Virus record (IMG/VR): IMGVR_UViG_3300017941_000006
DNA length: 20,000 nucleotides
Source: an uncultured virus (IMG/VR IMGVR_UViG_3300017941_000006)
Taxonomy: Duplodnaviria > Heunggongvirae > Uroviricota > Caudoviricetes
Reading direction: 5' to 3' (one strand)
Positions 3,708 through 20,000 of this stretch are shown in pieces. The notes under the pieces are model-generated. The model did not search any database and was not told the origin of the DNA. It was given only the letters and a program-made list of their open reading frames with translations. Numbering within the stretch: the first letter of the stretch is position 1; each line of letters starts with the position of its first letter. Position numbers and translations under genes: made by a program.

Positions 3708-6080
3708 ATGATAAAGAACTTTCTTCAGAAACTTATTAGGAATTTGGCTCCGGATGTTTTTAAACCAGACCCTTATACCCCGGGCTTGTTATATTTAACC
3801 CTGGATGCTATTCAAAGAGAGATAAGCGGTATATGTCCGTGGGATACAGGGGAAGAATGTTTAAAAGGCTATGATTCTTTTTGGTCTTCTCCGTGTAGGA
3901 ACTTTAATTGTCCGGGATATCTTCATCCTCACGGTTTGATTGCATATACATCCAGAAGTTCCAGCGAAACAAGTGTTGACAATAGATTTGATTATTCCAG
4001 CTTTAGGTATCTTGCCGGAGATGGCGATGATTGGATTCCTGCTGGAACTTTAGGAACAATGGTTCTTTTTAATTTTGGCTTTGCCGGAGACCCTGGCGGA
4101 TATGGTGCTTACTACTATGGTGCTTTGTATTATGGTGATAATTCACGTCTGGGTTCAGGCGTTGGTGTAGCAGCAATCGGAGATAAATGGTATATCACCT
4201 GCCACACTGCAAGTATTGTAATAGGTACAGATGGGCTGAATTACAGATGCAAGCGTCAACATTTATCAGCTTCCAACAATAAGCCGATAACTGGTGATCC
4301 TCTTGTGTGGCCTCTCTATTGGGAACAGGGAGGTTTGGCTGGGGATACTTGGATAGCGGATGCTGTGTATGACATAGTTTCCATAGTTGGCCCGCCGATT
4401 GCCGATCCCGGTAACAGAGGCGGCTGGTGTGCTGTTGCTACTAAAGGGCCTTATAGCGGAGACCATGACACTATTTATACTGTAGAAATTATTGATTTTA
4501 GGGGATATATCCAAGACTTTCAGAATGCGTTATTGCAAATTTCTTTAGCTTCATGCACAGAATCTTGGCTTGACTACTGGGGAGCATACTTTGGAATTCC
4601 AAGACTTCTAACTGTAAGTGGTTATGAAGAAGATGAAATCTATAGAGCTCGGATAATGAAGGAAATCACCCGAGCCAAAGGGACAAGGTCTGTTTTACTT
4701 GAAGAAGCCCAAGCTTATTTTAAATCTGATTTGGTATCTATAGAAGAGTATCATCAGAAAGGGGCAGCGAGTGTTGTTTTAGGAACTGATGACAAATATT
4801 ATATCTGTATTTTAAATCATACTTCCGAACCGTCGAACCGTCCGATAACTGGTGACAACTGGGCTCTCTATTGGAAGCAAGGAGGCTTAGCTGGTGATAC
4901 TTGGAAACCGGGACTTCCTTATGTGATAGAGACATCCCCAAGATGGGATGGGCCGGTCGCTCCGACTATAGATTGCCCTTCTTATGGAGTAGGAGACCCT
5001 GCTCAAGGATTGTGGCCCTGGGAATTTTATATTAACATTCCAGCCCAGCGTTCACTCTCTGGAAAGTTTATTAAAAGTGCAGAAGGAGATACTATTGGGC
5101 CTTGCTCATGCGATCAAGCTTGTTACGGACAATCTTCATGTAGTTGTGATATGACCACATATGGGGCTGTAATTTGCTCATGCGATACTACTTGCTATGG
5201 ACATCAGGCCTGCCAGGCCTCTTGCGATTTGCAACGTTACGGAGTAACAGATGTACAGGGGGGATGTGTCTGTAATGTTTCTTGCTATGGATATCATGCC
5301 TGTGACTGCGATGGAGTTTGCTATGGATATGCATGTTCTTGTGATCAAACTTGTTATCAAGAAACTCCTACTTCCTCTATCGCTTCACCGCAATCTTCGC
5401 AACCAACAGCGGATGAACTTGCCAGACTGAATCACATCCATGCTTTTCTCATTGTTTACGATGCGAATTGGGACAATGACAAAGTTGTTGCATTTGAAAA
5501 CTGGTTGATTGCTAATGGTTTATATTTTTATGGTGTTGGTGGTGGGACATGGAATATTAACTTGCAGGGTCAGGGAGAAGGAGGCTTATACGAATTTCTT
5601 GACATTCCTGCTTCAAGAGCACTTGCGGCCATGATAACCGATCCCCTTGCACATATTTATTATGCATCCACTGCACCTGATTTTACAATGCCGTTTGGAT
5701 CATCAGATTATGCAAACATTTCTATGCCACAAAATAAAGTCGGGGAGTCATTTTCATACGATTTAGTGGTTACTGGCACAGATCATTATGCTCTAAATGT
5801 ATGGGTCGCCCATTCTCCAACATCGGGGGAACCAGCAGCGTTTGCTTTGGTTCTTACTTTTCCTGATGCTCGTACTTTAACTTTTGGATATTCACCTGGT
5901 GGTTCTATTGACTATGGCTATTTTAATGTGATAGCTCAAAATGCTCCCATCGGTGGAGGCACTCCAAATATCGCAGATGCACATATACCAGAGGGGACTT
6001 GGAAGTTAACAATAATAATGGGGTCTGGGATATATGGTGGTACAGGGGGTCAAATAAATATATCGACGGAACTCACTTGA
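3708..6080 (+). CDS. Baseplate wedge / tail protein I-like protein (N-terminal part) with CBM-like repeats, Cys-rich repeats and an extra C-terminal domain
   Basis: WLDYWGAYFGIPRL...EEDEIYRARIMKEITRAKGT is typical of the wedge protein encoded after baseplate J. Long ORF in the expected gene order. Confidence 0.75.
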   Translation: MIKNFLQKLIRNLAPDVFKPDPYTPGLLYLTLDAIQREISGICPWDTGEECLKGYDSFWSSPCRNFNCPGYLHPHGLIAYTSRSSSETSVDNRFDYSSFRYLAGDGDDWIPAGTLGTMVLFNFGFAGDPGGYGAYYYGALYYGDNSRLGSGVGVAAIGDKWYITCHTASIVIGTDGLNYRCKRQHLSASNNKPITGDPLVWPLYWEQGGLAGDTWIADAVYDIVSIVGPPIADPGNRGGWCAVATKGPYSGDHDTIYTVEIIDFRGYIQDFQNALLQISLASCTESWLDYWGAYFGIPRLLTVSGYEEDEIYRARIMKEITRAKGTRSVLLEEAQAYFKSDLVSIEEYHQKGAASVVLGTDDKYYICILNHTSEPSNRPITGDNWALYWKQGGLAGDTWKPGLPYVIETSPRWDGPVAPTIDCPSYGVGDPAQGLWPWEFYINIPAQRSLSGKFIKSAEGDTIGPCSCDQACYGQSSCSCDMTTYGAVICSCDTTCYGHQACQASCDLQRYGVTDVQGGCVCNVSCYGYHACDCDGVCYGYACSCDQTCYQETPTSSIASPQSSQPTADELARLNHIHAFLIVYDANWDNDKVVAFENWLIANGLYFYGVGGGTWNINLQGQGEGGLYEFLDIPASRALAAMITDPLAHIYYASTAPDFTMPFGSSDYANISMPQNKVGESFSYDLVVTGTDHYALNVWVAHSPTSGEPAAFALVLTFPDARTLTFGYSPGGSIDYGYFNVIAQNAPIGGGTPNIADAHIPEGTWKLTIIMGSGIYGGTGGQINISTELT
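4209..4904 (+). repeat. Two copies of a ~48-aa Trp-rich module (4209-4352 and 4767-4904), CBM5/12-like
   Basis: ASIVIGTDGLNYRCKRQHLSASNNKPITGD..WPLYWEQGGLAGDTW vs ASVVLGTDDKYYICILNHTSEPSNRPITGDNWALYWKQGGLAGDTW; shared DNA ccgataactggtga. Confidence 0.8.
5103..5363 (+). repeat. Cys-rich coding repeat block 1 (7 x CxC[DN]xx[CT]YG-like)
   Basis: CSCDQACYG, CSCDMTTYG, CSCDTTCYG, CQASCDLQRYG, CVCNVSCYG, CDCDGVCYG, CSCDQTCYQ. Confidence 0.9.
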
Positions 6081-6144
6081 ACAGTTTAGGAGATGGAATG
6101 CCAATGTTTAAAAGACAAAATTTACTTCGGAGGAAACTAAGATA

Positions 6145-7200
6145 ATGGCAGCTTGTGTGTGCTATAACACATGTTATCAGCAACAACCTTGTACTTGTGA
6201 TCACACGAACCACGGATATGTGGGTTGCACATGTGATGTTCATTGTTACGGACAAGGACAAGTCTGTACTTGTGACATGCTATGCTATGGGTATATTGCC
6301 TGTACTTGTGATAACACGACTTACGGAGCAACTTCGTGTGGATGTAATAATGCTTGTTACGGAGACAAAGGTTGCTCCTGTGATTTTCACTGCTATCAGG
6401 AAGCTTCTGTGCCTGCTGGTGCTCCCTCTTTGAGAGACACAGTATTGGCATATAAATATGAAGGCGGCTATGGTAGTGGAGGCTACGGTGAATTTTTTCT
6501 AATAGTTTCAGGGAAGATGTTTCCAGACCCGACAAATGAGGGAGATGCTACACTATTCGGTTGCAGTCATCAATTTAGTGGAATTGAATTTTTATTCGCT
6601 ACCCCCGGAGTTGGCGGCGCTTATATTTGGGAATACTGGACAGGCTCACAATGGACTACTTTGACTGTCCAAGATGGAACTTCAAAAGGAACTTTAGGAT
6701 TAACTCAAGATGGATGGATAAACTGGCTTGAAGGTTTGCGTGACTGGGTTTTAGCAGATATTCCAAGTACAGGAACCCCGAAGTATTGGGTTAGATGTCG
6801 AGTTTTTACGCCACCTTCAACAACTCCTAATATTTCATCGATGTGGATCACTTATGCGGGGCAGACTTGCCGTGGAGTATATGTTGCTAATGGAACGCCT
6901 TCTTGTAAATGTAATTATACTTGTTATGACTACTCACCATGCTTTTGTAATTTAACTGCATACGGCGGTTCGCCTTGTGAGTGTGATCAGGCTTGCTACG
7001 GAGACTTTTCTTGCAGTTGTGACATGACTTGCTATACTGAAGTTGCTGCAACATATGTCCCAGATAACAGGGATTTAAACAATTGCTATGTTTTTGCCGA
7101 GGGAACGTTTGCCAAACCGATTGTTGAGTCAGGTTTGCAACAAATAATTGACAGGTTAAAAACTGCCGGAACAATAGCTATAATAAATCCTTTGGATTAG
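6145..7200 (+). CDS. Cys-rich baseplate-associated protein carrying the apparent C-terminal part of the wedge protein
   Basis: Own SD GGAGG at 6129-6133. 11 Cys repeats, a WEYW..W...DGT beta-domain and the terminal GLQQIIDRLKTAGTIAII typical of wedge-protein C-termini. Confidence 0.75.
   Translation: MAACVCYNTCYQQQPCTCDHTNHGYVGCTCDVHCYGQGQVCTCDMLCYGYIACTCDNTTYGATSCGCNNACYGDKGCSCDFHCYQEASVPAGAPSLRDTVLAYKYEGGYGSGGYGEFFLIVSGKMFPDPTNEGDATLFGCSHQFSGIEFLFATPGVGGAYIWEYWTGSQWTTLTVQDGTSKGTLGLTQDGWINWLEGLRDWVLADIPSTGTPKYWVRCRVFTPPSTTPNISSMWITYAGQTCRGVYVANGTPSCKCNYTCYDYSPCFCNLTAYGGSPCECDQACYGDFSCSCDMTCYTEVAATYVPDNRDLNNCYVFAEGTFAKPIVESGLQQIIDRLKTAGTIAIINPLD
6154..6402 (+). repeat. Cys-rich coding repeat block 2 (7 units)
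   Basis: CVCYNTCYQ, CTCDHTNHG, CTCDVHCYG, CTCDMLCYG, CTCDNTTYG, CGCNNACYG, CSCDFHCYQ. Confidence 0.9.
6904..7038 (+). repeat. Cys-rich coding repeat block 3 (4 units)
   Basis: CKCNYTCYD, CFCNLTAYG, CECDQACYG, CSCDMTCYT. Confidence 0.9.
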
Positions 7201-9385: not shown

Positions 9386-11125
9386 GTGGCCGGAAATTAT
9401 TTTAGAGGTTATTACATAGGGATCGGAGATGTCCCAACTGATGCAGAGTTAATGAGACATAAGAAATGGTTTCGTGCAGGGGTAGCACCAGTACCACCAT
9501 TTAGTGGTCAATATCTTGGTTTTATTCCTTGGCATCTGACAGTCGAGGGAAATTATATCTACGTTTGCGGTCAACAGGCATATACAGTAGGTGGTATTGA
9601 TTTCTATGACGCTACTGTAATGAAGGTCGATAGAACTACTCTTGCAATAATTGATGGTTTTAGTCCCAGACAGGCAACTAATAATTTGAGTAACTATTTT
9701 CAAAGGGTTTACATTGACGGAAACGATATTTATTTGGTTGGGACAGCCTATATTGACTCTCTCAAGAAGGCAGTAGTTACGAAAAGAGATAAAAATAATC
9801 TTTCGACTGAATACTGGACTAATTATTATCCACTTGGTGCAGGTTACTCTCTTGCTCAAGCTGTAAGTTGCGTTTCAGATGCTTTGTATCTATATGTTAC
9901 AGCAAATTATAATGATGCGCCCGGTCATTCAGCACCTTATAGATGGAAATTAAATAAGTCCGATGGTTCCACGGTTTGGGTAGGAGGTTCTGGCACTGCC
10001 GTGACAACATACGATGGTATAATTGATACTGGAAGTTATGTTGTTTTAGCTGGATCGGCAGGAGGTGATAGAGTAATTGAAAGGGTTGATAAGGCAACAA
10101 ACTTATCTGTGATCCACAGTATCAGCAGGGATCGCTATGCGAACATGGGCATAGTTTATGGTGGTTTGATTTCCATCCCTCAAGGCCCAAATAATGGAAA
10201 CACATTTATAAATGATTCTGCATATGGGAGTGTAAATTGGTTGAATCCGGGCAATGCTCAAGCTTCTGATGATGTGTATGCAACGGCAGGTGGAGGAAGC
10301 ACCAAATATTTGAAAGCAACTGGTTTTGGTTTCTCAATTCCTACCGGAGCTACCATAGTTGGTGTTGCTGTTGATGTAGAAAGACATGCTGGGGGTCCAA
10401 GTCACTATGCATATACCCAGTTGGCAAAATTGGTAAAGGCTGGTGTCGTAATAGGAACCTCACAAGCTGAAGGTTCGAATTGGCCTACTACGGATACTTA
10501 TGCAACTTATGGGGGGTCTTTTAACTTGTGGGGAACGACCTGGACTCCTGATGAAATTAATGCGGCGGGTTTTGGGTTTGCAATATCTGCCTATGTGAAT
10601 TCGGGGGACACTGCATACATTGACCACATAAGAATCACTGTTTATTACACTATGGGTAGCGCTCCCGCTGTATACTATGTTTGTGGGAATAGCTATCAAA
10701 GTATTATTACGCCACCATACGGAGACCCCAGGGTTTCTGTATTAGAATATGGTGCAGATTTTGTCAAAGTTTGGGAATGGACTAAGAATTATATTGTAGA
10801 TACTAATCTGCAAGAGGTATTGCTCAATAGCGTTATAGATGCCTCAGGTATTTATTCAATAGGAAGTATTCAGTATGAACCAACTCCTCTTGTTTATTAT
10901 AACCAGGCTATCCTTACAAAGATTGGTTTAGACGGGTCTCATCTTTGGGATTTGCAGCATGAGACACAATATATGACTGCTATAAGAGCAATTGGTCTGG
11001 ATATTGCTACTGTTCCTACTACTTTAGTAGTTGGGGTTTGTGATAACAATCCAGCTTTACCTGTTTCGCAACGTTACAGTTATCTTGAAAAAAGGTCAAT
11101 AGCAACTGGATTGATTTTTATCTAA
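9386..11125 (+). CDS. Putative beta-propeller receptor-binding / virion protein with an inserted beta-sandwich
   Basis: GTG start after AAGGAGG. Repeated blade-like segments (GNYIYVCG, GNDIYLVG, ALYLYVTA, SYVVLAG, SGIYSIG). Confidence 0.6.
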   Translation: MAGNYFRGYYIGIGDVPTDAELMRHKKWFRAGVAPVPPFSGQYLGFIPWHLTVEGNYIYVCGQQAYTVGGIDFYDATVMKVDRTTLAIIDGFSPRQATNNLSNYFQRVYIDGNDIYLVGTAYIDSLKKAVVTKRDKNNLSTEYWTNYYPLGAGYSLAQAVSCVSDALYLYVTANYNDAPGHSAPYRWKLNKSDGSTVWVGGSGTAVTTYDGIIDTGSYVVLAGSAGGDRVIERVDKATNLSVIHSISRDRYANMGIVYGGLISIPQGPNNGNTFINDSAYGSVNWLNPGNAQASDDVYATAGGGSTKYLKATGFGFSIPTGATIVGVAVDVERHAGGPSHYAYTQLAKLVKAGVVIGTSQAEGSNWPTTDTYATYGGSFNLWGTTWTPDEINAAGFGFAISAYVNSGDTAYIDHIRITVYYTMGSAPAVYYVCGNSYQSIITPPYGDPRVSVLEYGADFVKVWEWTKNYIVDTNLQEVLLNSVIDASGIYSIGSIQYEPTPLVYYNQAILTKIGLDGSHLWDLQHETQYMTAIRAIGLDIATVPTTLVVGVCDNNPALPVSQRYSYLEKRSIATGLIFI

Positions 11126-11135
11126 CGGAAAGTAG

Positions 11136-11306
11136 ATGCTAAAATCCGAATGTCTTGAATGCAGAAAAGTATACAAAGAGGTAGATGACGGAAAGAGGAA
11201 AGTGGACATAACTCATGGCTTTTGCCCGGTGTGTCTTAAAAAGATTCGTGAAAATAAAAAAATTCAAAAAGAAAGGAATAAATCATGTTCTCAGAAAAAG
11301 CTTTGA
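11136..11306 (+). CDS. Small Zn-finger protein (CxxC...HGxCxxC), 56 aa
   Basis: Hand translation MLKSECLECRKVYKEVDDGKRKVDITHGFCPVCLKKIRENKKIQKERNKSCSQKKL; below the ORF-track cutoff; overlaps the lysin start. Confidence 0.6.
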   Translation: MLKSECLECRKVYKEVDDGKRKVDITHGFCPVCLKKIRENKKIQKERNKSCSQKKL

Positions 11307-11962
11307 AACTTATACTTGATGAAGAGGGTCTTGATCAACCGTCTTTATGGCCTGGAAAGAGTTCCGGAATAACTATTGGAGTTGGCTATGATTTGGGGTA
11401 TGAGTCTAATTTTGAAAACGATTGGAAGCCCTACTTATCTCCCGATGAAATCGCCAGGCTTAAAACTGTCTTAGGACTTAAAGGCCAGGACGCTGCAAAG
11501 AGAGCTCCGGAGTTTAAAGATATTAAGATAAGCAGAGAGGAAGCAAATAGAGTTTTCATGGATAAAACTCTCCCGGAATACACAAGACAAACTCGAGTAG
11601 CTTTTCCAGGGTTTGACAGTCTACCATTAGATGCTCAGGGAGCTTTGGTATCTCTTGTCTATAATAGAGGTGCCGGTATGAGTGGGGATACCAGACTCGA
11701 GATGAGAAATATCCGAGACCTTGTCCCTAACATGGATTTGAAAGGAATAGTCGACCAGATAAGATCAATGAAGAGATTGTGGCCCAATGATTCCGCTTTG
11801 AAAAATAGAAGAGACCACGAAGCCGATTTAGTGGAAAGCTGTATTTTGACTTCAATGGTAGAGCCAGGACTTGAAGAAGCCAAGGAAATCCCTCAGCCAC
11901 AAGGTTTAGCTGGACTTGTTGGGGCTCTCATTAAGATAATAAGAAGTGTTTTGAAGATTTAA
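11285..11962 (+). CDS. Endolysin, pesticin-C/T4-lysozyme-like muramidase
   Basis: EEG...WPGKSSGITIGVGYDLG...QGALVSLVYNRG...LKNRRDHEADL motifs; position at the start of the lysis module. Confidence 0.85.
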   Translation: MFSEKALKLILDEEGLDQPSLWPGKSSGITIGVGYDLGYESNFENDWKPYLSPDEIARLKTVLGLKGQDAAKRAPEFKDIKISREEANRVFMDKTLPEYTRQTRVAFPGFDSLPLDAQGALVSLVYNRGAGMSGDTRLEMRNIRDLVPNMDLKGIVDQIRSMKRLWPNDSALKNRRDHEADLVESCILTSMVEPGLEEAKEIPQPQGLAGLVGALIKIIRSVLKI

Positions 11963-11981
11963 AACATAGGAGGTGATTTGT

Positions 11982-12545
11982 ATGGATTTTCTATCAATGC
12001 TTAGTGGCTACGTGGATGTTGGAAGTGTTCTTTTAGGGATTATCCTAACTCAGCTGATTAGATACTTACTTCCTACTCCGAAGGGATCTCCCAGCAAATT
12101 TGATGTCGGCCCTGTTGCTTACAGGTTTTTACCTTTCTTTCCCTTGTTTATAGGAGCCGCAACTGTTATATTAAAGGATGGGATAATAACCCCTACCATT
12201 GCTCTTGACGAAGCAATTGTTAAGGGTTTTATTTCAGGGGCGTGTGCTTCCTACTTATACAGGATGGTTAGAGTTACAATCTTTGGGAAGGCCTCAAATG
12301 GAAACGGGAATGGAAATGGACATGATGAGCATCATGACCATGACCATGATCACGATGAAAGGCATTACGATCATGACGAAGAAAGACATGACGAAGAAAG
12401 ACACGACCATGATGAACACGACCATGATGAAGAACGACACCACGATGAGGAAAAACCCGCTGATACTTCAACTAAGACTCCGGATGTTCCGGCTGATGTT
12501 AAGGCTGTTCCGGTTGAAGCTAAGCCTATACAAGACGTAAAGTAG
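11982..12545 (+). CDS. Holin-like membrane protein with His/Asp/Glu-rich C-terminal tail
   Basis: About three hydrophobic segments; directly after the endolysin. ATG 11982 is best spaced from the SD AGGAGGT. Confidence 0.6.
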   Translation: MDFLSMLSGYVDVGSVLLGIILTQLIRYLLPTPKGSPSKFDVGPVAYRFLPFFPLFIGAATVILKDGIITPTIALDEAIVKGFISGACASYLYRMVRVTIFGKASNGNGNGNGHDEHHDHDHDHDERHYDHDEERHDEERHDHDEHDHDEERHHDEEKPADTSTKTPDVPADVKAVPVEAKPIQDVK

Positions 12546-12573
12546 AAATAAGAAGATGACTGTGTTATATAAT
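12543..12573 (+). promoter_or_regulatory. Candidate sigma70-type promoter upstream of RNA motif copy A
   Basis: TGtTATATAAT at 12563-12573 (TATAAT 12568-12573); weak -35 TAGAAA 12543-12548. Predicted start about 12580. Confidence 0.45.
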
Positions 12574-12581
12574 TAAGAAGT

Positions 12582-12660
12582 AGGCTGAGTACAGCAAAAA
12601 AACTATGGCGAAAGGGTAGGCGGGCTCGAATCAGCCTGAAGAAAAGAATCCGACCTACCC
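12582..12660 (+). ncRNA. ACAGCAA stem motif, copy A, with an interlocking second helix
   Basis: AGGCTGA(12582-88)/TCAGCCT(12631-37) encloses TACAGCAAAA. GGGTAGGCGG(12614-23) pairs with CCGACCTACCC(12650-60). Confidence 0.6.
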
Positions 12661-12680
12661 AACTAAAAAAGGAGGATGAT

Positions 12681-12833
12681 ATGTTTGGATTCGGATTTGT
12701 AGTTGGAGCAATTGTTTTTGGGGCAGCTGGCTGGGGCTTAACGTATCTGTGGTTTAAGAGAGCTAAGATTCAAGCCAAGATTGCTGCCAAGGTTAATGCA
12801 GCAACAGCTGCTGTGGCCGGGGTGAAGAAGTAA
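12681..12833 (+). CDS. Small single-TM protein, 50 aa
   Basis: AAGGAGG SD; MFGFGFVVGAIVFGAAGWGLTYLWFKRAKIQAKIAAKVNAATAAVAGVKK. Confidence 0.75.
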   Translation: MFGFGFVVGAIVFGAAGWGLTYLWFKRAKIQAKIAAKVNAATAAVAGVKK

Positions 12834-12838
12834 AGAAT

Positions 12839-12951
12839 GGGTGGAGGGGAAAGCGCAACCTGCTCGAGTGTCCAAATGAGCTTTCCAAAGCTCTTGAGAA
12901 TGGTGGGAAAAAGGGATAAAATAAAATATGCAGGCCACCAGCCCTCCACCC
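12839..12951 (+). ncRNA. Predicted ~113-nt structured RNA
   Basis: Perfect 10-bp terminal helix GGGTGGAGGG/CCCTCCACCC; also CCTGC/GCAGG, GAGCTTT/AAAGCTC and TGGTGG/CCACCA. Confidence 0.5.
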
Positions 12952-12973
12952 GGCCTTTCATTAGAGAAAAAAG

Positions 12974-13429
12974 ATGAACTTTTTAAATGCAATAGATTAT
13001 AAATTGATTCTCTATGTTTTAGGGAGCGCTGTGGCCTTATACTTGACCTTTGTTTTTATCTCCATCATATTAAAAGGATGGGGTTCCCTAACAAGTATTT
13101 GGTTCTGGACGAAAAAAATCGGATGGATTTTTGTTATATTAATTGGGTTGTTCTTTGCGTTAAGAGCTCTTCGTAAGAAAACTGAAGCAAAGAATGTCAT
13201 TGATACCAATTTATCAAATCTCCAAAAGATTGAAGACAAAACCCAAGCAGATAAGCAAAGGGAAGCAGAGCTCATAGTACAGAAAAAGGAAGTCGAACAA
13301 AGCATAGTAGTTTTAGCCAAGAAGTATCAAGATAAAGTGGATTCTTTAAATAAACGTCCGGACGATAAACCTACTGACCCACCGGGACATGCCGGGCAAA
13401 GTTACGAAGACCTTAAAAATTCATGGTAA
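12974..13429 (+). CDS. Membrane protein with C-terminal coiled coil (i-spanin-like candidate)
   Basis: Two N-terminal hydrophobic helices, then a charged heptad-rich region; located in the lysis module. Confidence 0.5.
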   Translation: MNFLNAIDYKLILYVLGSAVALYLTFVFISIILKGWGSLTSIWFWTKKIGWIFVILIGLFFALRALRKKTEAKNVIDTNLSNLQKIEDKTQADKQREAELIVQKKEVEQSIVVLAKKYQDKVDSLNKRPDDKPTDPPGHAGQSYEDLKNSW

Positions 13430-13506
13430 AGGGGAAAGAAATGATTTCAATACGTTCACTGCCGTTTAGATGGAGAGGAATATAGGCTTTTCCTCCTCAA
13501 GGACTG

Positions 13507-13560
13507 AAGATTGGCTACAGCAACAAAAACCCACTCACATGGATAAAGTTCCAATCTGTT
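13507..13560 (+). ncRNA. ACAGCAA stem motif, copy B
   Basis: AGATTGG(13508-14) ctACAGCAAcaaaaaccc ... CCAATCT(13551-57) GTT. Confidence 0.65.
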
Positions 13561-13581
13561 AATTATTGAGGAGATAAAATA

Positions 13582-13653
13582 ATGGGAAGATTGGTTTCCG
13601 CAATAAAACATGGTGGAAAGCTGGGGGTCGAACCCTGGAACCAATCTGTTTAA
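13582..13653 (+). CDS. Possible 23-aa leader peptide spanning motif copy C
   Basis: GAGGAG SD at 13568-73; MGRLVSAIKHGGKLGVEPWNQSV*. Confidence 0.3.
   Translation: MGRLVSAIKHGGKLGVEPWNQSV
13587..13650 (+). ncRNA. ACAGCAA stem motif, copy C (variant TCCGCAA)
   Basis: AGATTGGTT(13588-96) TCCGCAAtaaaa ... internal hairpin CTGGG-GGTCGAA-CCCTG ... AACCAATCT(13639-47) GTT. Confidence 0.6.
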
Positions 13654-13674
13654 AAAAGGAAAGGAGAAATTAAC

Positions 13675-14277
13675 ATGGCAACAGCAACAGAAATCTACAA
13701 AGCAATAGCAGATAAGATTCGAGCAGATGCAGCGATTAATCACCCTGGTGACAAGTCCTATGGGGACGAAGCTAACTTGGTAGAATATATTGGGGTTCTT
13801 GTTGACAGAACAACTACCTATGCAGCCCAGGTTAAGGGGTGTGTTGATCCTATGAAGACTACACTCCTACTTTGGGTATCAGGATTTAATGGCTTACTCC
13901 AAGCGATGCAGATCTACAATAACACATTTACTTGCGCCAAGGAGATGCGCAAGGGATACGAGAGTGCACAAGTAGTCAGAGGACTTCCAGTACTCCCAAC
14001 GCTAAGTTTAGCAGCCATCGACGCAGATACCACAAAGTGGTTCATCAATGTGCAGAATTTATCCAAGTACTGTCAATGGTCACCCTATGACATGACTGTG
14101 CCGAGACCTGATTTGTCCTCTGTCTTGAAGAACGTATACAATCAATACGTAGTACTGAGAGACATGGGGGCTACTACAGAACCACTTCCAGTTGTGCCAC
14201 CTGTTTCTCTTGAGCCGAGGGTTAAGGCCCTGGAAGACGCAATGGTTGCAGTAAAGGCAGCTCTAAAAATATCCTAA
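13675..14277 (+). CDS. Hypothetical protein, 200 aa, flanked by the RNA-motif repeats
   Basis: Strong SD AAGGAG; no family recognised; short C-terminal coiled coil (LEPRVKALEDAMVAVKAALK). Confidence 0.75.
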   Translation: MATATEIYKAIADKIRADAAINHPGDKSYGDEANLVEYIGVLVDRTTTYAAQVKGCVDPMKTTLLLWVSGFNGLLQAMQIYNNTFTCAKEMRKGYESAQVVRGLPVLPTLSLAAIDADTTKWFINVQNLSKYCQWSPYDMTVPRPDLSSVLKNVYNQYVVLRDMGATTEPLPVVPPVSLEPRVKALEDAMVAVKAALKIS

Positions 14278-14286
14278 CTTAGATTT

Positions 14287-14345
14287 AAGATTGGTTACAG
14301 CAACAAAAACCCATGCAAAAGGACGCCGAAAGGCACCAATCTGTT
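14287..14345 (+). ncRNA. ACAGCAA stem motif, copy D
   Basis: AGATTGGT(14288-95) tACAGCAAcaaaaaccc ... GCC-GAAA-GGC ... ACCAATCT(14335-42) GTT; the first 27 nt match copy B at 26 positions. Confidence 0.65.
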
Positions 14346-14354
14346 TAATGAACA

Positions 14355-14509
14355 ATCCCAGTCCATCTTATGACCACGTGTTATAGGAGATGACTGTGGA
14401 AAGTCCTTCGGAGGCGAGAAGACCGAACCGGTCGACAGGTAAGCCAATGAATGGACTGAATAAGGCCGTAGCAGAAGGTCTTTCCGTGGCCACGGTTCTG
14501 CAGCGGGAT
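14355..14509 (+). ncRNA. Predicted ~155-nt multi-helix, pseudoknotted RNA
   Basis: ATCCC/GGGAT ends; CAGTCCAT/ATGGACTG; GACCG/CGGTC; GGAAAGTCCTTC(14398-409)/GAAGGTCTTTCC(14474-85). GC-richer than the flanks and no ORF. Confidence 0.55.
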
Positions 14510-14518
14510 ACTAAATCT

Positions 14519-14560
14519 TTCCCCTTGTTTCTCCTAAAGAGCGATAAGGGGAATTAAATT
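14519..14560 (+). terminator. Terminator-like hairpin
   Basis: TTCCCCTT(14519-26)...AAGGGGAA(14546-53) followed by an AT-rich tail; the U-tract is weak. Confidence 0.45.
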
Positions 14561-14609
14561 AAAGTCCCATCAGGTAAGTAGTTAAGTCCTGATGTCTTAC
14601 AGGTGAACT

Positions 14610-15110
14610 ATGAAAAAACTTATTATTGCACTATGTTTATTAACTTTTAGTTGTACTCCTCTTTTAAAGTATACCCCTCCTGTAATAGAACCCCCTAAAA
14701 AGATGGAACACTATGCGTTACCTGTTGATCCGACAGCCTCTTTGTCTCCTCCAAAGGCCATCTTTCTTAAACAGGACACAGATGGTAAATACATCGAGTG
14801 TCCCGAGACAGAAGCCTATCTTACCGCATATACCGGAAAAGAGCATGATAAAATTGTTCTCAGGTTAACATATTACAAGGAATTGATTCCTCAGATGGTT
14901 AATTATGTCAATGTTATTATAGACATAGGTAACGTCAGATTAGACCTCCAAGTAGACCAAAGGCTCGTAACAGAAGTTTACAAGCAAATGTGGATCGATG
15001 CTGTAAACAATACTACAGTTCAACAACGATGGGATACCCTTGCAAAGACAGGTCAATGGGCACTTATCATTGCTGAGATGGCAGCCATCATTCTTCTTAT
15101 CGTAAAATAA
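14610..15110 (+). CDS. Lipoprotein with C-terminal TM helix (spanin candidate)
   Basis: MKKLIIALCLLTFSC lipoprotein signal, Pro-rich linker, C-terminal WALIIAEMAAIILLIVK. Confidence 0.6.
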   Translation: MKKLIIALCLLTFSCTPLLKYTPPVIEPPKKMEHYALPVDPTASLSPPKAIFLKQDTDGKYIECPETEAYLTAYTGKEHDKIVLRLTYYKELIPQMVNYVNVIIDIGNVRLDLQVDQRLVTEVYKQMWIDAVNNTTVQQRWDTLAKTGQWALIIAEMAAIILLIVK

Positions 15111-15133
15111 TTCGTAAAAAACAAAGATTTTTC

Positions 15134-15163
15134 TTGACAAAGACGTAAAAAATAGTGTATCAT
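15134..15163 (+). promoter_or_regulatory. Sigma70 promoter starting the early/accessory region
   Basis: TTGACA (15134-39), 18-nt spacer, TATCAT (15158-63). Confidence 0.7.
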
Positions 15164-15244
15164 CTTGTTATATTAATTGATGATGCAGATGTCAAAAGTG
15201 ACAACCAAAGCGACCTAAACCGTTAAAAATGAAAGGAGTAAACT

Positions 15245-15646
15245 ATGTTCAGAGAGTATATTCCAAAAACCAGAGGTGCTACCAATGCTGCTCTAAAGGA
15301 AGAAATTGTTATGTCGTATACAGCCATGCGGTTCTCGAAAGAATTTTGGGAGAGAGAACCTTGAAAGATGTGGGCTTTTCCCAGAGAAGATCAAGATTAA
15401 GATTAAAATTCTTAATTCGAACATTCATAACAAGTTTAGACTTTTCCTCTTGGACTCTGAAACCTGCCACCTCTTGGGGATCGACCGGAATGATTCCAAC
15501 TTGATTGGCTTCTTTGTCAAATAGGAGCCTAATCCTTTCTGCCCCCAAAAGTTATGAACATGGGCTCCAACACCCGAATGAGAATCATAGACCTGAATCA
15601 GTATTGCAAACCAAAAGGGGGTGATATGAAATCACAGATGAAATGA
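15245..15646 (+). pseudogene. 133-aa gene disrupted by an internal inversion (15360-15550)
   Basis: SD AAAGGAG and ATG 15245. As written it stops at TGA 15362-64. Reverse-complementing 15360-15550 gives an uninterrupted frame to TGA 15644-46. Confidence 0.75.
15360..15550 (-). other. Inverted 191-bp segment bounded by AAC(15357-59)/GTT(15551-53)
   Basis: The minus strand encodes LLGAERIRLLFDKEANQVGIIPVD...EKPTSFK in exact register with both + strand flanks. Confidence 0.75.
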
Positions 15647-15729
15647 GATGAAAAATACCGCCGTGGCTAAAGTGTTTGAAAATTGAATTCTAAACTTAAA
15701 AACAAATCTAAAAAAGGAGAAATGAAAAC

Positions 15730-16047
15730 ATGAAGAAGATTCTAATTGCGATGTTGTTAGTGTTGGCGATGGTGTGTATGACGGTGCCTGCAATGGCAGC
15801 CAAGGGGTTTTATGTAACAGGAACATCCAGCGCAGCAGTGAGCTCGATTTCTGGAACTACTGGTTTCGGAATTTCAGCTACTTGTGCAAGTGCATGGAAT
15901 GGTTCTCTCGCTACGGTTACTTTCCCAAGTGGCAATGCGGTGAGTACATATGCTAACTCTGGTGGGAAAACATTCACAGGTGGCTTTAACGGCAATACTC
16001 TGGCCGAGATGAGTGGCAGCGCTTATGCTACTGGATGGAAGAACTAA
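15730..16047 (+). CDS. Small exported Gly/Ser/Ala/Thr-rich protein
   Basis: Sec signal MKKILIAMLLVLAMVCMTVPAMA; SD AAGGAG. Confidence 0.75.
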   Translation: MKKILIAMLLVLAMVCMTVPAMAAKGFYVTGTSSAAVSSISGTTGFGISATCASAWNGSLATVTFPSGNAVSTYANSGGKTFTGGFNGNTLAEMSGSAYATGWKN

Positions 16048-18015: not shown

Positions 18016-18195
18016 ATGGAGAAGAAAATTATAATTGAATGGGATAAGAATTCCAAAGCAAAAATAGAGGTCGAAGGTGCAGTCGGGCAAGAATGCATAA
18101 CATTGACAGATGCCCTTGAAAGAAGTCAGGGAACTGTGGAGAACAGAGAGCTAAAAGACGAATACAATCAAGGTGAGCCAATCAAAGTGAGGTAA
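18016..18195 (+). CDS. DUF2997-like small protein, 59 aa
   Basis: SD AAGGAGG; MEKKIIIEWDKNSKAKIEVEGAVGQECITLTDALERSQGTVENRELKDEY matches the EVxGxxGxxCxxLTxxLE...KxEY pattern. Confidence 0.7.
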   Translation: MEKKIIIEWDKNSKAKIEVEGAVGQECITLTDALERSQGTVENRELKDEYNQGEPIKVR

Positions 18196-18234
18196 TGGGT
18201 TGTTTGTTGGTCCATTAAGAGAGGGGGTAAAGTT

Positions 18235-18435
18235 ATGCCAGTTCATTTTGATGGAAGAGATTTAAAAGTAACAAAACCGAAGGAAGTTATTGAGTTGATC
18301 TTTACAGAAGACTCGATAACATCCCCGTGGTGGACGAAGGAAACAAGTAAATTGATGTGCAAACTTTGTCCCAAAAAGGATACTGAAAATTGCAATCAAA
18401 TGACTTGTCTAAATTCTAACCCTTGGTGTGGCTGA
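18235..18435 (+). CDS. Small Cys-rich hypothetical protein
   Basis: C-terminal CKLCP...CNQMTCLNSNPWCG; purine-rich SD. Confidence 0.6.
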   Translation: MPVHFDGRDLKVTKPKEVIELIFTEDSITSPWWTKETSKLMCKLCPKKDTENCNQMTCLNSNPWCG

Positions 18436-18464
18436 AACCTTAACCATGAAACGGAGGTAATGAA

Positions 18465-20000
18465 ATGGCTGATGAAAAGAAAAAAGAGAAAGATGAAGGC
18501 GTGTGGTCAAGATTCCATGAAGAGCTTGAACTAAGGATTAAAGCCGGGATAGCTTGCATATGGGTTCAGACCAATGAAGAGGAAAGAGCTCTTAAGGCAA
18601 TCAAGACAGTTTGTGATAGCCTTGATAACCTTCTCTATGTTTGGGACTTGGCTTCGGCCATGATCTATTTGTATCAGGAACAGAAAAATCCTGAGAAACC
18701 ACTTCAAGGAACGTCTGCTCTTCCGGTTGAAGCGATTGCAGCATTTAGCAAGAAGACATATCGAGATCGGTCTATTCTTGTGCTTCTTGATTACCATTGG
18801 TCGATCAATCAGCCCCTTGCTATTCGGAAACTCAAAGATGCCCTTCCAATTTTGAGAGGCAATGCAAAAGGCGTGATCTTTGTTGGGCCCCGATTGCAAA
18901 TGACGGAAGAGACAGAAAAGGATATTACGTATCTTAACCTTGATCTTCCGGGTAGGGACGAATTGAAAGTTTATCTTGGCTATGTTCGGGAGTCGGTTGC
19001 AGCCAATACCGGGAAACCTTGTAATTGCAAAGACTGTAAAGGTAAACTGGTTCATGTTACCCCGGAAACAGAAAGCAAGCTTGTTGAAGCAGCTTTAGGA
19101 CTGACAAGCCAAGAAGGAGAGGATGCCTTTAGCTTTGCCGGTGCCAAACATAACGACTTTGAGGGCAACTCTATTAACCTAATCATCGACCAGAAATGCC
19201 AGGTCTTGAAGAAAGAAGGAATTCTCGAATACATAAAGACCGAAGAGAGTATGGCGACAGTTGGTGGTTGTGAGAACATCAAGAACTGGTGCTTGAAACG
19301 GAAAAGAGCTTTTACCCCGAAGGCGTCGGCGTTTGGTCTTCCTGCTCCAAAAGGAATTATCCTGATGGGTGTTCAAGGGGCAGGGAAAAGTTTGTTGGCA
19401 AAAGCAATCGCAGCTTATTGGCAAGTTCCCCTTTTGCGTTATGATGTTGGTAAGTCATATAGCAAATGGCAAGGGGAAACAGAGGGTAGTGTTCGGAAGG
19501 TTATTGAGACCGCTGAGATCATGAGTCCATGTGTCCTCCACATTGACGAGATTGAGAAAGCCTTTTCCGGTATTCAATCTTCTGGACAAACGGACTCTGG
19601 AACGACAGCAAGGTTTGTTCAGACCTTCTTGACATGGTTACAAGAGAAGGTTAAGCCTGTATTTGTGTTTGCAACCTGTAACAATATCGGCAATTTGATA
19701 TCTGCATGTCCGGAGTTGTTAAGGAAAGGCCGATTTGATGAAATCTTTTTCGTTGATCTTCCAGATCGGAAGGCCAGATCAGAGATCATAAAGATTCATT
19801 TAAAGAAACATCCTTTGATGGATGAGAAAACCGGGAAGCTTGCTAAAGCTCGTGAATTTTCCCAAAAGGATATTGATCGAATTGTTGATGTAAGCGCTGG
19901 TCAGGGTGGTAATTCATATACCGGTGCCGAGATTGAGCAAGGTATCATTGCTGGTTTGTATGAGGCTTTTGAAGAAGGGGAGCGAGACCTTGTAGCGGAT
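18465..20000 (+). CDS. Ycf46-like AAA+ ATPase (3'-truncated by the window; absent from the ORF track)
   Basis: SD GGAGG and ATG 18465. N-domain WVQTNEEER...LLDYH; Walker A GVQGAGKS (19368-91); Walker B LHIDEIEK; SRH PELLRKGRFDEIFFVDLP. Confidence 0.9.
   Translation, partial: MADEKKKEKDEGVWSRFHEELELRIKAGIACIWVQTNEEERALKAIKTVCDSLDNLLYVWDLASAMIYLYQEQKNPEKPLQGTSALPVEAIAAFSKKTYRDRSILVLLDYHWSINQPLAIRKLKDALPILRGNAKGVIFVGPRLQMTEETEKDITYLNLDLPGRDELKVYLGYVRESVAANTGKPCNCKDCKGKLVHVTPETESKLVEAALGLTSQEGEDAFSFAGAKHNDFEGNSINLIIDQKCQVLKKEGILEYIKTEESMATVGGCENIKNWCLKRKRAFTPKASAFGLPAPKGIILMGVQGAGKSLLAKAIAAYWQVPLLRYDVGKSYSKWQGETEGSVRKVIETAEIMSPCVLHIDEIEKAFSGIQSSGQTDSGTTARFVQTFLTWLQEKVKPVFVFATCNNIGNLISACPELLRKGRFDEIFFVDLPDRKARSEIIKIHLKKHPLMDEKTGKLAKAREFSQKDIDRIVDVSAGQGGNSYTGAEIEQGIIAGLYEAFEEGERDLVAD

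What the first reader, a model, noticed from the sequence alone, without database searches (positions are those of the whole stretch)
12582..14345. Four copies of a covarying 'stem-ACAGCAA-A-rich-variable-stem-CTG' RNA motif inside the lysis module
Seen: copies at 12582-12638, 13507-13560, 13587-13650 and 14287-14345. They share a 7-9 bp closing helix, then (T)ACAGCAA (TCCGCAA in copy C), an A-run, a variable interior with small hairpins (GCC-GAAA-GGC; GGG-GGTCGAA-CCC; CCA-CTCACA-TGG) and a 3' end in CTG. The helix covaries: AGGCTGA/TCAGCCT in copy A vs AGATTGG/CCAATCT in B-D, which argues for selection on structure. The conserved CAG could alternatively pair with the terminal CTG. All copies are intergenic and on the same strand; A, B and C sit shortly upstream of SD sequences. 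Inference: a phage ncRNA family I cannot name (riboswitch-like, protein-binding/processing site, or tRNA-like decoy).
Basis: partly seen in the sequence, partly recalled or inferred. Interest (0 to 1): 0.8.

Follow-up and report, generated by a model that had tools for sequence, protein, structure and literature searches.

The report
Phage Y-like RNAs resembling Dictyostelium RNAs
Four short hairpin-closed sequences between the late genes of an uncultured phage belong to a large phage small-RNA family for which I found no description; the family sits beside a Ro60-like protein gene and tRNA genes and carries the same signature as the unexplained Class I RNAs of social amoebae.

Summary
Four co-oriented intergenic elements of 51-61 nt lie at 12582-12638, 13508-13558, 13588-13648 and 14288-14343. 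Each has a 7-bp closing helix, a (U)UACAGCAA-type motif, an A-rich variable interior and a CUG end.

They are not a private repeat. A covariance model built from them finds dozens of members in unrelated phages, each with a different helix. All 7 pairs covary and 99.6% of cells are paired.

The members cluster on the gene strand, often inside tRNA gene arrays. In 68 of 76 testable loci one ends within 100 nt upstream of a DUF2828+DUF7788 gene. A model of that protein folds like Ro60/TROVE. The layout is therefore that of Y RNAs.

A homologue of this protein is recorded on a contig of exactly the length recorded for the window's own proteins (179,023 bp). The window's phage therefore probably encodes the partner outside the 42 kb I hold.

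Stem, motif, (A)AG start, CUGU end and ~55 nt length also match Dictyostelium Class I RNAs (Rfam RF01414). That is the only Rfam ncRNA family hitting the elements, and always below its threshold. Kjellin et al. 2021 report those RNAs as unique to dictyostelids.

Expression and protein binding are inferred, not shown.

The parts
12582..12638 (+). Element A (57 nt): helix AGGCUGA/UCAGCCU, motif GUACAGCAA, A-run, variable interior, CUG then AA.
   Evidence: 70.1 bits with R1; 42.4 bits with R2. It lies 37 nt after the stop of ORF 11973-12545 and 42 nt before the ATG at 12681.
13508..13558 (+). Element B (51 nt): preceded by A (AAG start), helix AGAUUGG/CCAAUCU, motif CUACAGCAA, ends CUGUU.
   Evidence: (54.4 bits). 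It lies 78 nt after the stop of ORF 12974-13429. The sequence just 3' of it is homologous to the gene junction of relative L056.
13588..13648 (+). Element C (61 nt): AAG start, same helix extended to 9 bp, motif UUUCCGCAA, inner hairpin with a T-arm-like GGGGUCGAACCC, ends CUGUU.
   Evidence: z -2.69; 52.5 bits. It closely resembles L193:5134-5203 of an unrelated complete phage. It overlaps the mini-ORF 13583-13654.
14288..14343 (+). Element D (56 nt): AAG start, helix AGAUUGG/CCAAUCU, motif GGUUACAGCAA, GCC-GAAA-GGC hairpin, ends CUGUU.
   Evidence: 81 bits; 57.9 bits. It is the only window copy with an Rfam match: RF01414, 13.2 bits, E 3.6, model 1-56. It starts 10 nt after the stop of ORF 13675-14277.
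13583..13654 (+). 23-codon ORF with SD GAGGAG that contains element C. It is probably a by-product of the junction's SD and ATG, not a conserved gene.
   Evidence: Read. The same SD-ATG junction starts the lipoprotein gene in relative L056. The reading frame is not kept in A, B or D.
11285..11962 (+). Endolysin (GH24/pesticin-type lysozyme). It marks the lysis region and anchors the synteny comparison.
   Evidence: Pfam PF16754 at 8.9e-7. Homologues are named GH24 lysozyme.
12681..12977 (+). Two small ORFs (50 and 46 aa) that, together with element A, are absent between the homologous genes of relative L056.
13675..14277 (+). 200-aa ORFan flanked by elements C and D. It is absent from relative L056.
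   Evidence: Only itself was found among 5.8 billion proteins. No match in viral contigs or cultured phages. Synteny.
14610..15110 (+). 166-aa lipoprotein (spanin-like). It is the homologue of the gene that directly follows the junction in L056.
   Evidence: tblastn: 43% identity over 166 aa to L056 1408-1905. Lipobox read.

Best explanation
The four elements are genes or modules for small structured RNAs of a widespread phage family. The family behaves like Y RNAs.

Anatomy: a 7-bp helix joins the 5' and 3' ends. Its sequence is free but its pairing is kept, it starts with AG, and it ends with CU followed by G. Next to its 5' strand lies a single-stranded (U)U(A/U)CAGCAA motif. The rest is A-rich and variable and may hold an extra hairpin or, in long members, a tRNA-like module.

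Inferred mechanism: the RNAs are transcribed with the neighbouring genes or tRNAs and trimmed at the conserved (A/U)AG and CUG(U) ends. They then bind a phage Ro60-like protein (DUF2828+DUF7788, a TROVE-like ring plus vWA). Binding would use the stem plus the CAGCAA motif, which occupies the place of the GNCGAA/GGUCCGA Ro-binding motif of known Y RNAs. The RNAs would thereby gate or tether that protein during RNA repair, RNA surveillance or counter-defence in infection.

In this phage the four copies are scattered between late/lysis genes, inside lineage-specific insertions. The partner gene lies elsewhere in the ~179-kb genome.

Shown: the family, its covariation, its strand bias, its gene neighbourhood and the Ro60-like fold. 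Inferred: transcription as discrete RNAs, processing, binding and function.
For: (1) Family and structure.
- Model R1, built from the four copies, finds further members with other helices in loci from unrelated phages. Model R2 finds 27 matches in 5 of 5 whole records and 35 members in 7 sources.
- On those 35 members all 7 pairs change on both sides. 99.6% of cells pair, against 78.2% in shuffles. There are 53 double-change cells against 11.2, and 0 of 500 shuffles reach this. Partners slid by 1-3 columns pair in only 20-46% of cells.
- RNAalifold on an independent MAFFT alignment of 24 short members returns the same helix. 6 of 7 pairs are compensated and none is broken.

(2) RNA-like placement.
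- All matches in a genome are on one strand and clustered.
- In L196 four elements follow tRNA-Ile with 2-8 nt spacers. In L195 one element ends 4 nt before a tRNA.
- Long members carry T-arm- and D-arm-like modules.

(3) Partner gene.
- The ORF next to the arrays is DUF2828+DUF7788 in L151, L192, L193, L194, L195 and L196.
- The AF2 model (pLDDT 68) has Ro60/TROVE chains as its 13 best Foldseek hits, with E 1.6e-8 to 6.8e-6 and TM 0.45-0.61.
- A profile search of the PDB puts Ro60/TROVE in the top 4, though weakly (E 0.12-0.8).
- Among the 80 best of 576 viral relatives of this protein, my motif-plus-helix scan finds gene-strand hits in 76 loci (169 hits). The other strand gives 5 hits, and reversed sequences give 3+3.
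- In 68 of the 76 loci holding at least 150 nt upstream, an element ends within 100 nt of the gene start (median 18 nt).
- R2 gives 48 matches in these loci, all 48 on the gene strand, in 38 of 80 loci.
- All 7 records whose elements had convincing model scores carry the gene. A record with only a weak pattern match (G010) does not.

(4) The window's phage.
- P0135 is 480 aa, DUF2828+DUF7788, and 33% identical over its full length to the modelled protein.
- Its recorded longest contig is 179,023 bp. That is the same figure recorded for the window's own ORFan and lysozyme.

(5) Precedent.
- Y RNAs lie within 4 kb of Ro60 genes on the same strand, in bacteria and in 22 phages, and carry a 5' GNCGAA motif (PMC4201824, passages).
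- Thermus phage phiLo has two Y-like RNAs upstream of its Ro60 gene, and they bind it (PMC12135203, passages).
- The Felixounavirus Bas63 gp130 is Ro60-like and counters the Ppl defence. Its RNA partner was only guessed at (PMC11482910, passages).
- I find the elements in the tRNA array next to the homologous gene of E. coli phage nataliec.
Against: - No expression data exist. No RNA run holds the region.
- The 42 kb held for this phage (window plus G001) has no Ro60-like gene and no tRNA. Here the elements are more than 6 kb from the partner on one side and more than 22 kb on the other. That is further than in any other genome examined.
- The motif is CAGCAA, not the published GNCGAA.
- At 51-61 nt the elements are shorter than known Y RNAs (80-130 nt).
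- G-U pairs are rare: 17 of 1022 helix pairs and 1 of 245 cells. This would also fit a DNA-level inverted repeat.
- The window's copies sit exactly where this phage has extra genes relative to L056, which could point to a DNA-level role.
- Folding z-scores are modest, and B equals its shuffles.
- Alignments made by the model lean towards its structure.
- The 80 loci are the closest relatives of one protein and include near-identical records, so they are not 80 independent cases.
Confidence: 0.62

Rival explanations
1. The elements are cis-acting punctuation of polycistronic transcripts. They would be recognised by a host or phage RNase and would separate or stabilise neighbouring mRNAs and tRNAs, with no role as free RNAs or Ro60 partners.
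For: They lie between genes, 10-78 nt after stops and 25-42 nt before SD sites. In other phages they alternate with tRNAs at tRNA-like spacing. The conserved ends AG and CUG(U) could be cleavage signals.
Against: This does not explain the near-constant position just upstream of one particular gene family (68 of 76 loci). It also does not explain the arrays of 3-4 elements with no gene between them, or the tRNA-like modules inside long members.
Confidence: 0.17
2. The elements are DNA-level repeats. They would be boundaries of mobile or recombining gene cassettes (as proposed for promoter-stem-loop cassettes of T4-type phages; recalled, not checked here) or miniature inverted-repeat elements.
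For: Relative L056 has the same four flanking genes but lacks A with its two small ORFs, and lacks B, C, the 200-aa ORFan and D. G-U pairs are rare. In other phages the elements lie in regions rich in small ORFs and in HNH or TnpB-like genes.
Against: Strand bias is strict: 169 against 5 hits and 48 of 48 model matches on the gene strand. The conserved motif is asymmetric. I saw no target duplications in the flanks. Four other metagenome runs show no presence/absence variants or joints. Unrelated phage families keep the same motif.
Confidence: 0.1
3. The elements are decayed tRNA genes or tRNA fragments left from a former tRNA array.
For: They have a 7-bp terminal helix like an acceptor stem. 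C has a T-arm-like hairpin. The family is associated with tRNA arrays.
Against: ARAGORN finds no tRNA in the window. In bacterial mode, even at a lowered threshold, it finds none among the 35 elements. The mitochondrial mode reports 3 of 35, all on the opposite strand. Rfam tRNA does not hit them. A motif and ends conserved across hundreds of copies argue for selection on this form itself.
Confidence: 0.04
4. The elements are riboswitch-like sensors, or leader structures controlling translation of the downstream ORFs.
For: A, B and C lie shortly upstream of SD sites.
Against: The interior is not conserved in sequence or structure. D and many family members have no ORF directly downstream. Elements also occur in tandem and before tRNAs.
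Confidence: 0.03

Closest known systems
Dictyostelium Class I RNAs (Rfam RF01414 Dicty_Class_I_RNA; Kjellin et al. 2021, PMC7919456, passages read)
   Same: - The 5' and 3' ends are joined by a short stem whose pairing, not its sequence, is kept.
- A motif sits next to the 5' strand of the stem. The Rfam consensus has CCUUACAGCAA; window D has GGUUACAGCAA.
- The near-invariant motif positions T3, C6, C9, A10 and A11 are present.
- The conserved start is AAG and the conserved end is CUGU, with the G pairing the C.
- The rest of the RNA is variable.
- Length is about 42-65 nt.
- RF01414 is the only Rfam ncRNA family that hits the phage elements. It always aligns the full model on the element's own coordinates.
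   Different: - The hosts are phages of bacteria, not amoebae.
- Scores are 13-31 bits against a gathering score of 41.5.
- The stem is 7 bp, because the preceding A pairs with the U of CUG.
- In the clade nearest L194 the base before AG is U (82%), not A.
- The elements are co-transcribed with genes and tRNAs rather than driven by the DUSE promoter.
- The known amoebal partner is an RRM protein (Rnp1A). Here the neighbour is a Ro60-like protein.
- The paper reports Class I RNAs as absent outside Dictyostelia.
Bacterial and phage Y RNAs (YrlA/YrlB; Yrl1/Yrl2 of Thermus phage phiLo; PMC4201824 and PMC12135203, passages read)
   Same: - Encoded next to, and on the same strand as, a Ro60-type gene.
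- One to several copies per genome.
- A terminal stem formed by the two ends.
- A short conserved motif on the 5' side next to the stem.
- Long members with tRNA-like T and D modules.
- Neighbourhood of tRNAs, RtcB and RNA ligases.
   Different: - The protein is the DUF2828+DUF7788 branch, recognisable as Ro60-like by fold but only weakly by sequence.
- The motif is CAGCAA, not GNCGAA.
- Most members are 50-70 nt, half the size of known Y RNAs.
- No Rfam Y RNA family matches them.
- In the window they are not beside the protein gene.
tRNA genes of phage tRNA arrays
   Same: A 7-bp terminal helix. Position and spacing within tRNA arrays, on the same strand.
   Different: No cloverleaf and no anticodon arm. 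They are not detected as tRNA by ARAGORN in bacterial mode or by Rfam tRNA.

Membership tests
Dictyostelium Class I RNA (RF01414) | Short stem joining the 5' and 3' ends, with pairing conserved through compensatory changes | tested here: met
   All four copies have a 7-bp helix. A differs from B-D by 3 double changes. In the family all 7 pairs covary.
Dictyostelium Class I RNA (RF01414) | 11-nt motif next to the 5' stem strand, with T, C, C, A, A near-invariant at positions 3, 6, 9, 10, 11 (PMC7919456) | tested here: met
   C and D have all five. A and B have four of five (position 3 is G or C). D matches 9 of the 11 letters of the Rfam consensus motif.
Dictyostelium Class I RNA (RF01414) | Conserved ends: start AAG, end CUGU, with the G pairing the C | tested here: met
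   B, C and D have AAG...CUGU. A has UAG...CUGA. In 146 distinct relatives the base after CUG is U in 74%, but the base before AG is U in 82%.
Dictyostelium Class I RNA (RF01414) | Length about 42-65 nt with a variable remainder | tested here: met
   The copies are 57, 51, 61 and 56 nt, and their interiors are not alignable beyond short stretches.
Dictyostelium Class I RNA (RF01414) | Score at or above Rfam's gathering threshold (41.5 bits) | tested here: not met
   D scores 13.2 bits. B and C give no match. A gives no match at E<=10. The best phage relatives score 30.6, 29.3 and 23.3 bits.
Dictyostelium Class I RNA (RF01414) | Upstream DUSE promoter; abundant expression; binding of Rnp1A | not testable with these tools
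   These are eukaryotic promoter and protein features. No RNA run holds the region.
Y RNA (Ro60-associated) | Encoded near, and on the same strand as, a Ro60-type gene | tested here: inconclusive
   Met for the family: 68 of 76 loci within 100 nt. Not met within the 42 kb held for this phage. A homologue (P0135) shares the recorded contig length of 179,023 bp.
Y RNA (Ro60-associated) | Terminal stem formed by the 5' and 3' ends, enclosing a large loop | tested here: met
Y RNA (Ro60-associated) | Ro-binding motif GNCGAAN0-1G (bacteria) or GGUCCGA (animals) near the 5' end (PMC4201824) | tested here: not met
   The same position holds (U)UACAGCAA, or UCCGCAA in C. The motif is related in place, not in letters.
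Y RNA (Ro60-associated) | Size 80-130 nt; tRNA-like domain in at least one copy per genome | tested here: inconclusive
   The window copies are 51-61 nt, and only C has a T-arm-like hairpin. Long relatives of 115-185 nt with T and D modules exist in other phages. Three quarters of this genome is unseen.
Y RNA (Ro60-associated) | Binding to the Ro60-type protein | not testable with these tools
   The complex predictor takes proteins only. No experiment was possible.
tRNA | Cloverleaf with an anticodon arm, detectable by ARAGORN or Rfam RF00005 | tested here: not met
Intrinsic terminator | Tight G+C-rich hairpin followed by a T-run | tested here: not met
   No + strand terminator-like site falls in the elements. 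The one site that overlaps D is on the other strand (14337-14322). The loops are 37-47 nt.

The most novel reading that the evidence does not exclude
The phage elements and the Class I RNAs of dictyostelid amoebae are one ancient family of miniature Y-type RNAs. Their common partner would be the DUF2828-type Ro60 paralogue.

On this reading the bacteria-eating amoebae acquired the RNA, and perhaps the protein, from phages or bacteria. The function of Class I RNAs, still reported as unknown, would then be to regulate a Ro60-like RNA-surveillance particle. In phages the same particle would serve RNA repair or counter-defence, as with the Ppl defence countered by Bas63 gp130.
Probability: 0.3. 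Interest if true: 0.9.

Novelty: new variant of a known kind. Interest (0 to 1): 0.8.

Why it matters
- It supplies candidate RNA partners for a Ro60-like protein found in 711 cultured phage records. These include Felixounavirus, Listeria, Staphylococcus, Campylobacter, Mycobacterium, Vibrio and Synechococcus phages. One member of this protein group (Bas63 gp130) is reported to counter a bacterial defence, but its RNA partner was only guessed at (PMC11482910).
[quoted passage not shown] It also offers a concrete, testable idea for their function, which that paper still reports as unknown: a Y-RNA-like role with a Ro60-type protein.
- It adds a short, easily recognised RNA class to phage genome annotation. 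The elements sit unannotated between the tRNAs of E. coli phage nataliec.
- For this window it explains four repeats in the lysis region as members of that class, not as a local curiosity.

Tried and rejected
- **Rfam.** At gathering thresholds, no match on the window. At E<=10 on 12300-14700, only four unrelated weak hits.
- **Close relatives of the phage.** Megablast of 11000-15500 against cultured phages found nothing. The 200-aa ORFan has no relative in viral contigs, in cultured phages or among 5.8 billion proteins. The AAA ATPase has only 27-31% relatives.
- **First motif scan.** The pattern GATTGGYTACAGCAAYAAAA in viral contigs gave one hit inside a coding region of a 328-kb record. I judged it chance.
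- **Earlier notes of this scan.** Nothing by place or by sequence.
- **Promoter and terminator scan of 11000-16000.** Promoter-like sites were at chance level (11 against 10.6). None lies at the elements, and there is no + strand terminator there.
- **RNA evidence.** No RNA holder is listed.
- **Contigs of four other runs.** Identical where they cover the region, with no joints and no indels. So I have no strain variation to use.
- **tRNA reading.** ARAGORN in bacterial mode reports none of the 35 elements, even at a lowered threshold. The mitochondrial mode reports 3 of 35 on the opposite strand.
- **Small-protein reading.** Only C lies in an ORF, and the frames differ in the other copies.
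- **Resemblances considered by eye from recalled consensus sequences and dropped without a formal test:** hammerhead, twister, pistol and HDV-like ribozymes; integron attC sites; REP/IS200 hairpins; retron RNA; the tRNA-Trp acceptor stem (AG...CUG); Hfq (ARN)n sites.
- **Giant-virus MAG contigs.** L143 and L161 each hold a single pattern match. No Ro60-like ORF lies in the 3-4 kb held, and the records are not held for search. Unresolved, possibly chance.
- **Dictyostelium proteins.** The tools could not tell me whether Dictyostelium has a DUF2828 protein, or whether DDB_G0281243 is one. Paper searches for DUF2828, UCP015417, PF11443, IPR011205 and DDB_G0281243 gave nothing useful.
- **Relatedness of the phages.** The window's baseplate protein has no match in G003 or G005-G008. 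The carriers are therefore not close kin.
Full report
**1. The observation**

The four copies are real. They lie on the + strand between ORFs at 12582-12638 (A), 13508-13558 (B), 13588-13648 (C) and 14288-14343 (D).

B, C and D share the helix AGATTGG/CCAATCT. The gapped pattern gave 3 matches against none in 200 shuffles. A has AGGCTGA/TCAGCCT, so three of its seven pairs are changed on both sides and still pair.

After the 5' strand come TACAGCAA (TCCGCAA in C), an A-run and a variable interior. The 3' strand is followed by G, so each element ends in CUG. In B, C and D the ends read AAG...CUGUU.

Folding energies are not remarkable, with z-scores of -1.77, -0.08, -2.69 and -2.21. Rfam at curated thresholds and ARAGORN found nothing.

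**2. Context**

The window is part of an uncultured myovirus-like phage. Baseplate J and sheath-initiator genes sit at its left end. The endolysin is at 11285-11962, followed by small membrane proteins and a lipoprotein.

The phage has no close cultured relative. Its proteins are recorded on a contig of 179,023 bp. I hold about 42 kb of it: the window plus the 37-kb record G001, which is identical over the elements.

A 7-kb relative (L056) has the endolysin and three flanking genes in the same order, at 66, 51, 31 and 43% identity. It lacks element A with its two small ORFs. It also lacks B, C, the 200-aa ORFan and D. The elements therefore lie in lineage-specific insertions.

C sits inside a 23-codon ORF. 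The SD and ATG of that ORF correspond to the start of the lipoprotein gene in L056.

**3. A family beyond this phage**

A covariance model of the four copies (R1) found no further copy in the 83,535 bases of this phage and its close relatives.

A scan of viral contigs with a B/C/D-type pattern returned 28 loci, about the number I had estimated for chance. R1 then found additional elements in several of those loci that the pattern had not selected, and these have other helices.

A second model (R2) gave 27 matches in 5 of 5 whole records. Within each record the matches are clustered and all on one strand. In 7 sources it gave 35 members.

On those 35 members all seven pairs change on both sides. 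99.6% of cells pair, against 78.2% in shuffles. There are 53 double-change cells against 11.2, and slid partners pair in only 20-46% of cells. This alignment was fitted by the model. RNAalifold on an independent MAFFT alignment of 24 short members gives the same helix, with 6 of 7 pairs compensated and none broken.

The carriers are not kin of the window's phage.

**4. Where the elements sit**

In L196 four elements follow tRNA-Ile with 2-8 nt spacers, inside an 18-tRNA array. In L195 they are interspersed among 23 tRNAs, and one ends 4 nt before a tRNA.

The ORF next to the arrays is DUF2828 plus DUF7788 in six loci. Its AlphaFold model is of moderate quality (pLDDT 68, pTM 0.62). The model has Ro60/TROVE chains as its 13 best Foldseek matches over the full length. 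These include the Thermus phage phiLo Ro60. A profile search of the PDB also puts Ro60/TROVE first, though weakly.

Among the 80 best of 576 viral relatives of this protein:
- R2 finds 48 matches, all on the gene strand, in 38 loci.
- A simple motif-plus-helix scan finds 169 gene-strand hits in 76 loci. The other strand gives 5, and reversed controls give 3+3.
- In 68 of the 76 loci with upstream sequence, an element ends within 100 nt of the gene (median 18 nt).
- The usual layout is one long element (~165 nt, with T- and D-arm-like modules) and one short element (~54 nt) just before the gene.

These loci include near-identical records and represent one clade of the protein.

**5. The window's own partner**

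No such gene lies in the window or in G001. A search with the protein of the phage whose elements most resemble B-D returned P0135. P0135 is 480 aa with the same two domains, and its recorded longest contig is 179,023 bp. It aligns over its full length with the modelled protein.

The equal contig length is circumstantial. It does make it likely that this phage encodes the protein somewhere outside the 42 kb I hold.

**6. Comparison with Y RNAs**

The following comes from published passages:
- Bacterial and phage Y RNAs lie within 4 kb of Ro60 on the same strand. They have a terminal stem and a 5' GNCGAA motif that resembles the GGUCCGA contacted by Ro60. They include a tRNA-like domain (PMC4201824).
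- Phage phiLo has two Y-like RNAs upstream of its Ro60 gene, and they bind it (PMC12135203).
- Some jumbo phages carry TROVE proteins alongside RNA-repair genes (PMC7824862).

The present family has the same layout. It differs in the protein branch, in the motif (CAGCAA) and, for most members, in having half the size.

**7. Comparison with Class I RNAs**

RF01414 (Dictyostelium Class I RNA) is the only Rfam ncRNA family that hits the elements. Each time it aligns the full model on the element's own coordinates:
- L218: 30.6 bits
- L219: 29.3 bits, and L280: 23.3 bits
- Window D: 13.2 bits

All are below the gathering score of 41.5. B and C give no match.

Kjellin et al. 2021 (passages) define Class I RNAs by five features:
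- a 6-bp terminal stem with compensatory changes;
- an 11-nt motif next to its 5' strand, with five near-invariant positions;
- the start AAG and the end CUGU;
- a variable remainder;
- a length of about 60 nt.

They conclude that the class is unique to dictyostelids and that its function is unknown. The window's copies meet each RNA-level feature, with A and B missing one motif position (see the membership table). Descent and convergence cannot be told apart here.

The preprint version names four proteins pulled down with one Class I RNA. One of them, DDB_G0281243, is of unknown function. I could not find out what it is.

**8. Cultured phages**

The protein occurs in 711 cultured phage records, where it is annotated as RNA-binding, vWFA, Ro-like or DUF2828. 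The elements are present in three of the four records I inspected:
- E. coli phage nataliec (Felixounavirus): four elements in the tRNA array just downstream of the gene. Three are confirmed by R2.
- Synechococcus phage BUCT-ZZ01: two elements just upstream of the gene, both confirmed by R2.
- Listeria phage LMTA-34: three elements upstream of the gene, found by the scan only.

In Staphylococcus phage 6ec the scan gave one hit inside a coding region, which is probably chance.

A preprint reports that the Felixounavirus Bas63 homologue gp130 is Ro60-like and counters the Ppl defence. It only guesses that some annotated tRNAs might be its Y RNAs (PMC11482910).

**9. Is it in print?**

My searches of the held library found no paper linking this motif, Class I RNAs or DUF2828 proteins to phages or Ro60. 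Two 2026 preprints on noncoding-element mining contain none of the relevant terms. The library lacks most subscription journals, and I did not open any supplements.

**10. Verdict**

The best explanation is a Y-RNA-like partner of a phage Ro60-type protein, with a Class-I-type signature. Family membership is well supported. RNA-level function is probable. Protein binding and biological role are inferred.

The main weaknesses are the lack of any expression data, the distance from the partner gene in this phage, the rarity of G-U pairs, and the position of the copies in lineage-specific insertions. The last two keep a DNA-level reading alive.

Noticed in passing
window 12327-12433 (inside ORF 11973-12545): Imperfect direct repeats rich in CAT/GAC codons give a His/Asp-rich tail to the 190-aa protein. 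The tail is absent from the 114-aa homologue in L056. It caused weak spurious Rfam hits to mir-598 and isrO.
   Followed up: no
window 5102-7004 (ORFs 3708-6080 and 6145-7200): At least six copies of a 30-nt repeat encoding a Cys-rich unit, in the putative baseplate or fibre proteins (families D1, D2, D13, D16).
   Followed up: no
window 13554-13585 and L056 1379-1410: The sequence following element B's helix (ATCTGTTAATTATTG, then SD, then ATG) is homologous to the junction before the lipoprotein gene in L056, which has no element. The 3' half of the helix plus CTGTT(T)AA may therefore predate the insertion.
   Followed up: partly
L196 5981-6061: An 81-nt stretch inside a phage tRNA array scores 68.8 bits with Rfam tmRNA (gathering score 47). 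It spans model positions 1-374 and so has most of the model deleted. It may be a tRNA-like domain only.
   Followed up: no
L192 7465-8781 (record G003): A TnpB/Cas12f-like gene (OrfB_IS605 plus the Cas12f1-like TNB domain) lies directly after an array of four elements.
   Followed up: no
L193 2179-3096; L285 5802-7013; L195 8070-8543: RNA ligase (PF09414), RtcB and an RNase H-like gene lie close to the elements and the Ro60-like gene, fitting an RNA-repair neighbourhood.
   Followed up: no
L143 2993-3049 and L161 21-95 (giant-virus MAG contigs): Single AT-rich matches to the element model (31 and 26.5 bits) in contigs labelled as giant-virus MAGs. No Ro60-like ORF lies in the held flanks. This could be chance, or a bridge to eukaryotic hosts.
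   Followed up: partly
window 18016-20000: A DUF2997 protein (59 aa) is followed by a 66-aa ORF and a large AAA+ ATPase of PHROG 8638. The ATPase is shared at about 30% identity with Rhizobium, Pseudomonas and Mycobacterium phages.
   Followed up: no
window 12553-12563 and 14386-14396: The same 11-mer (AGATGACTGTG) lies upstream of A and downstream of D. This is within chance expectation for 20 kb by my estimate.
   Followed up: no
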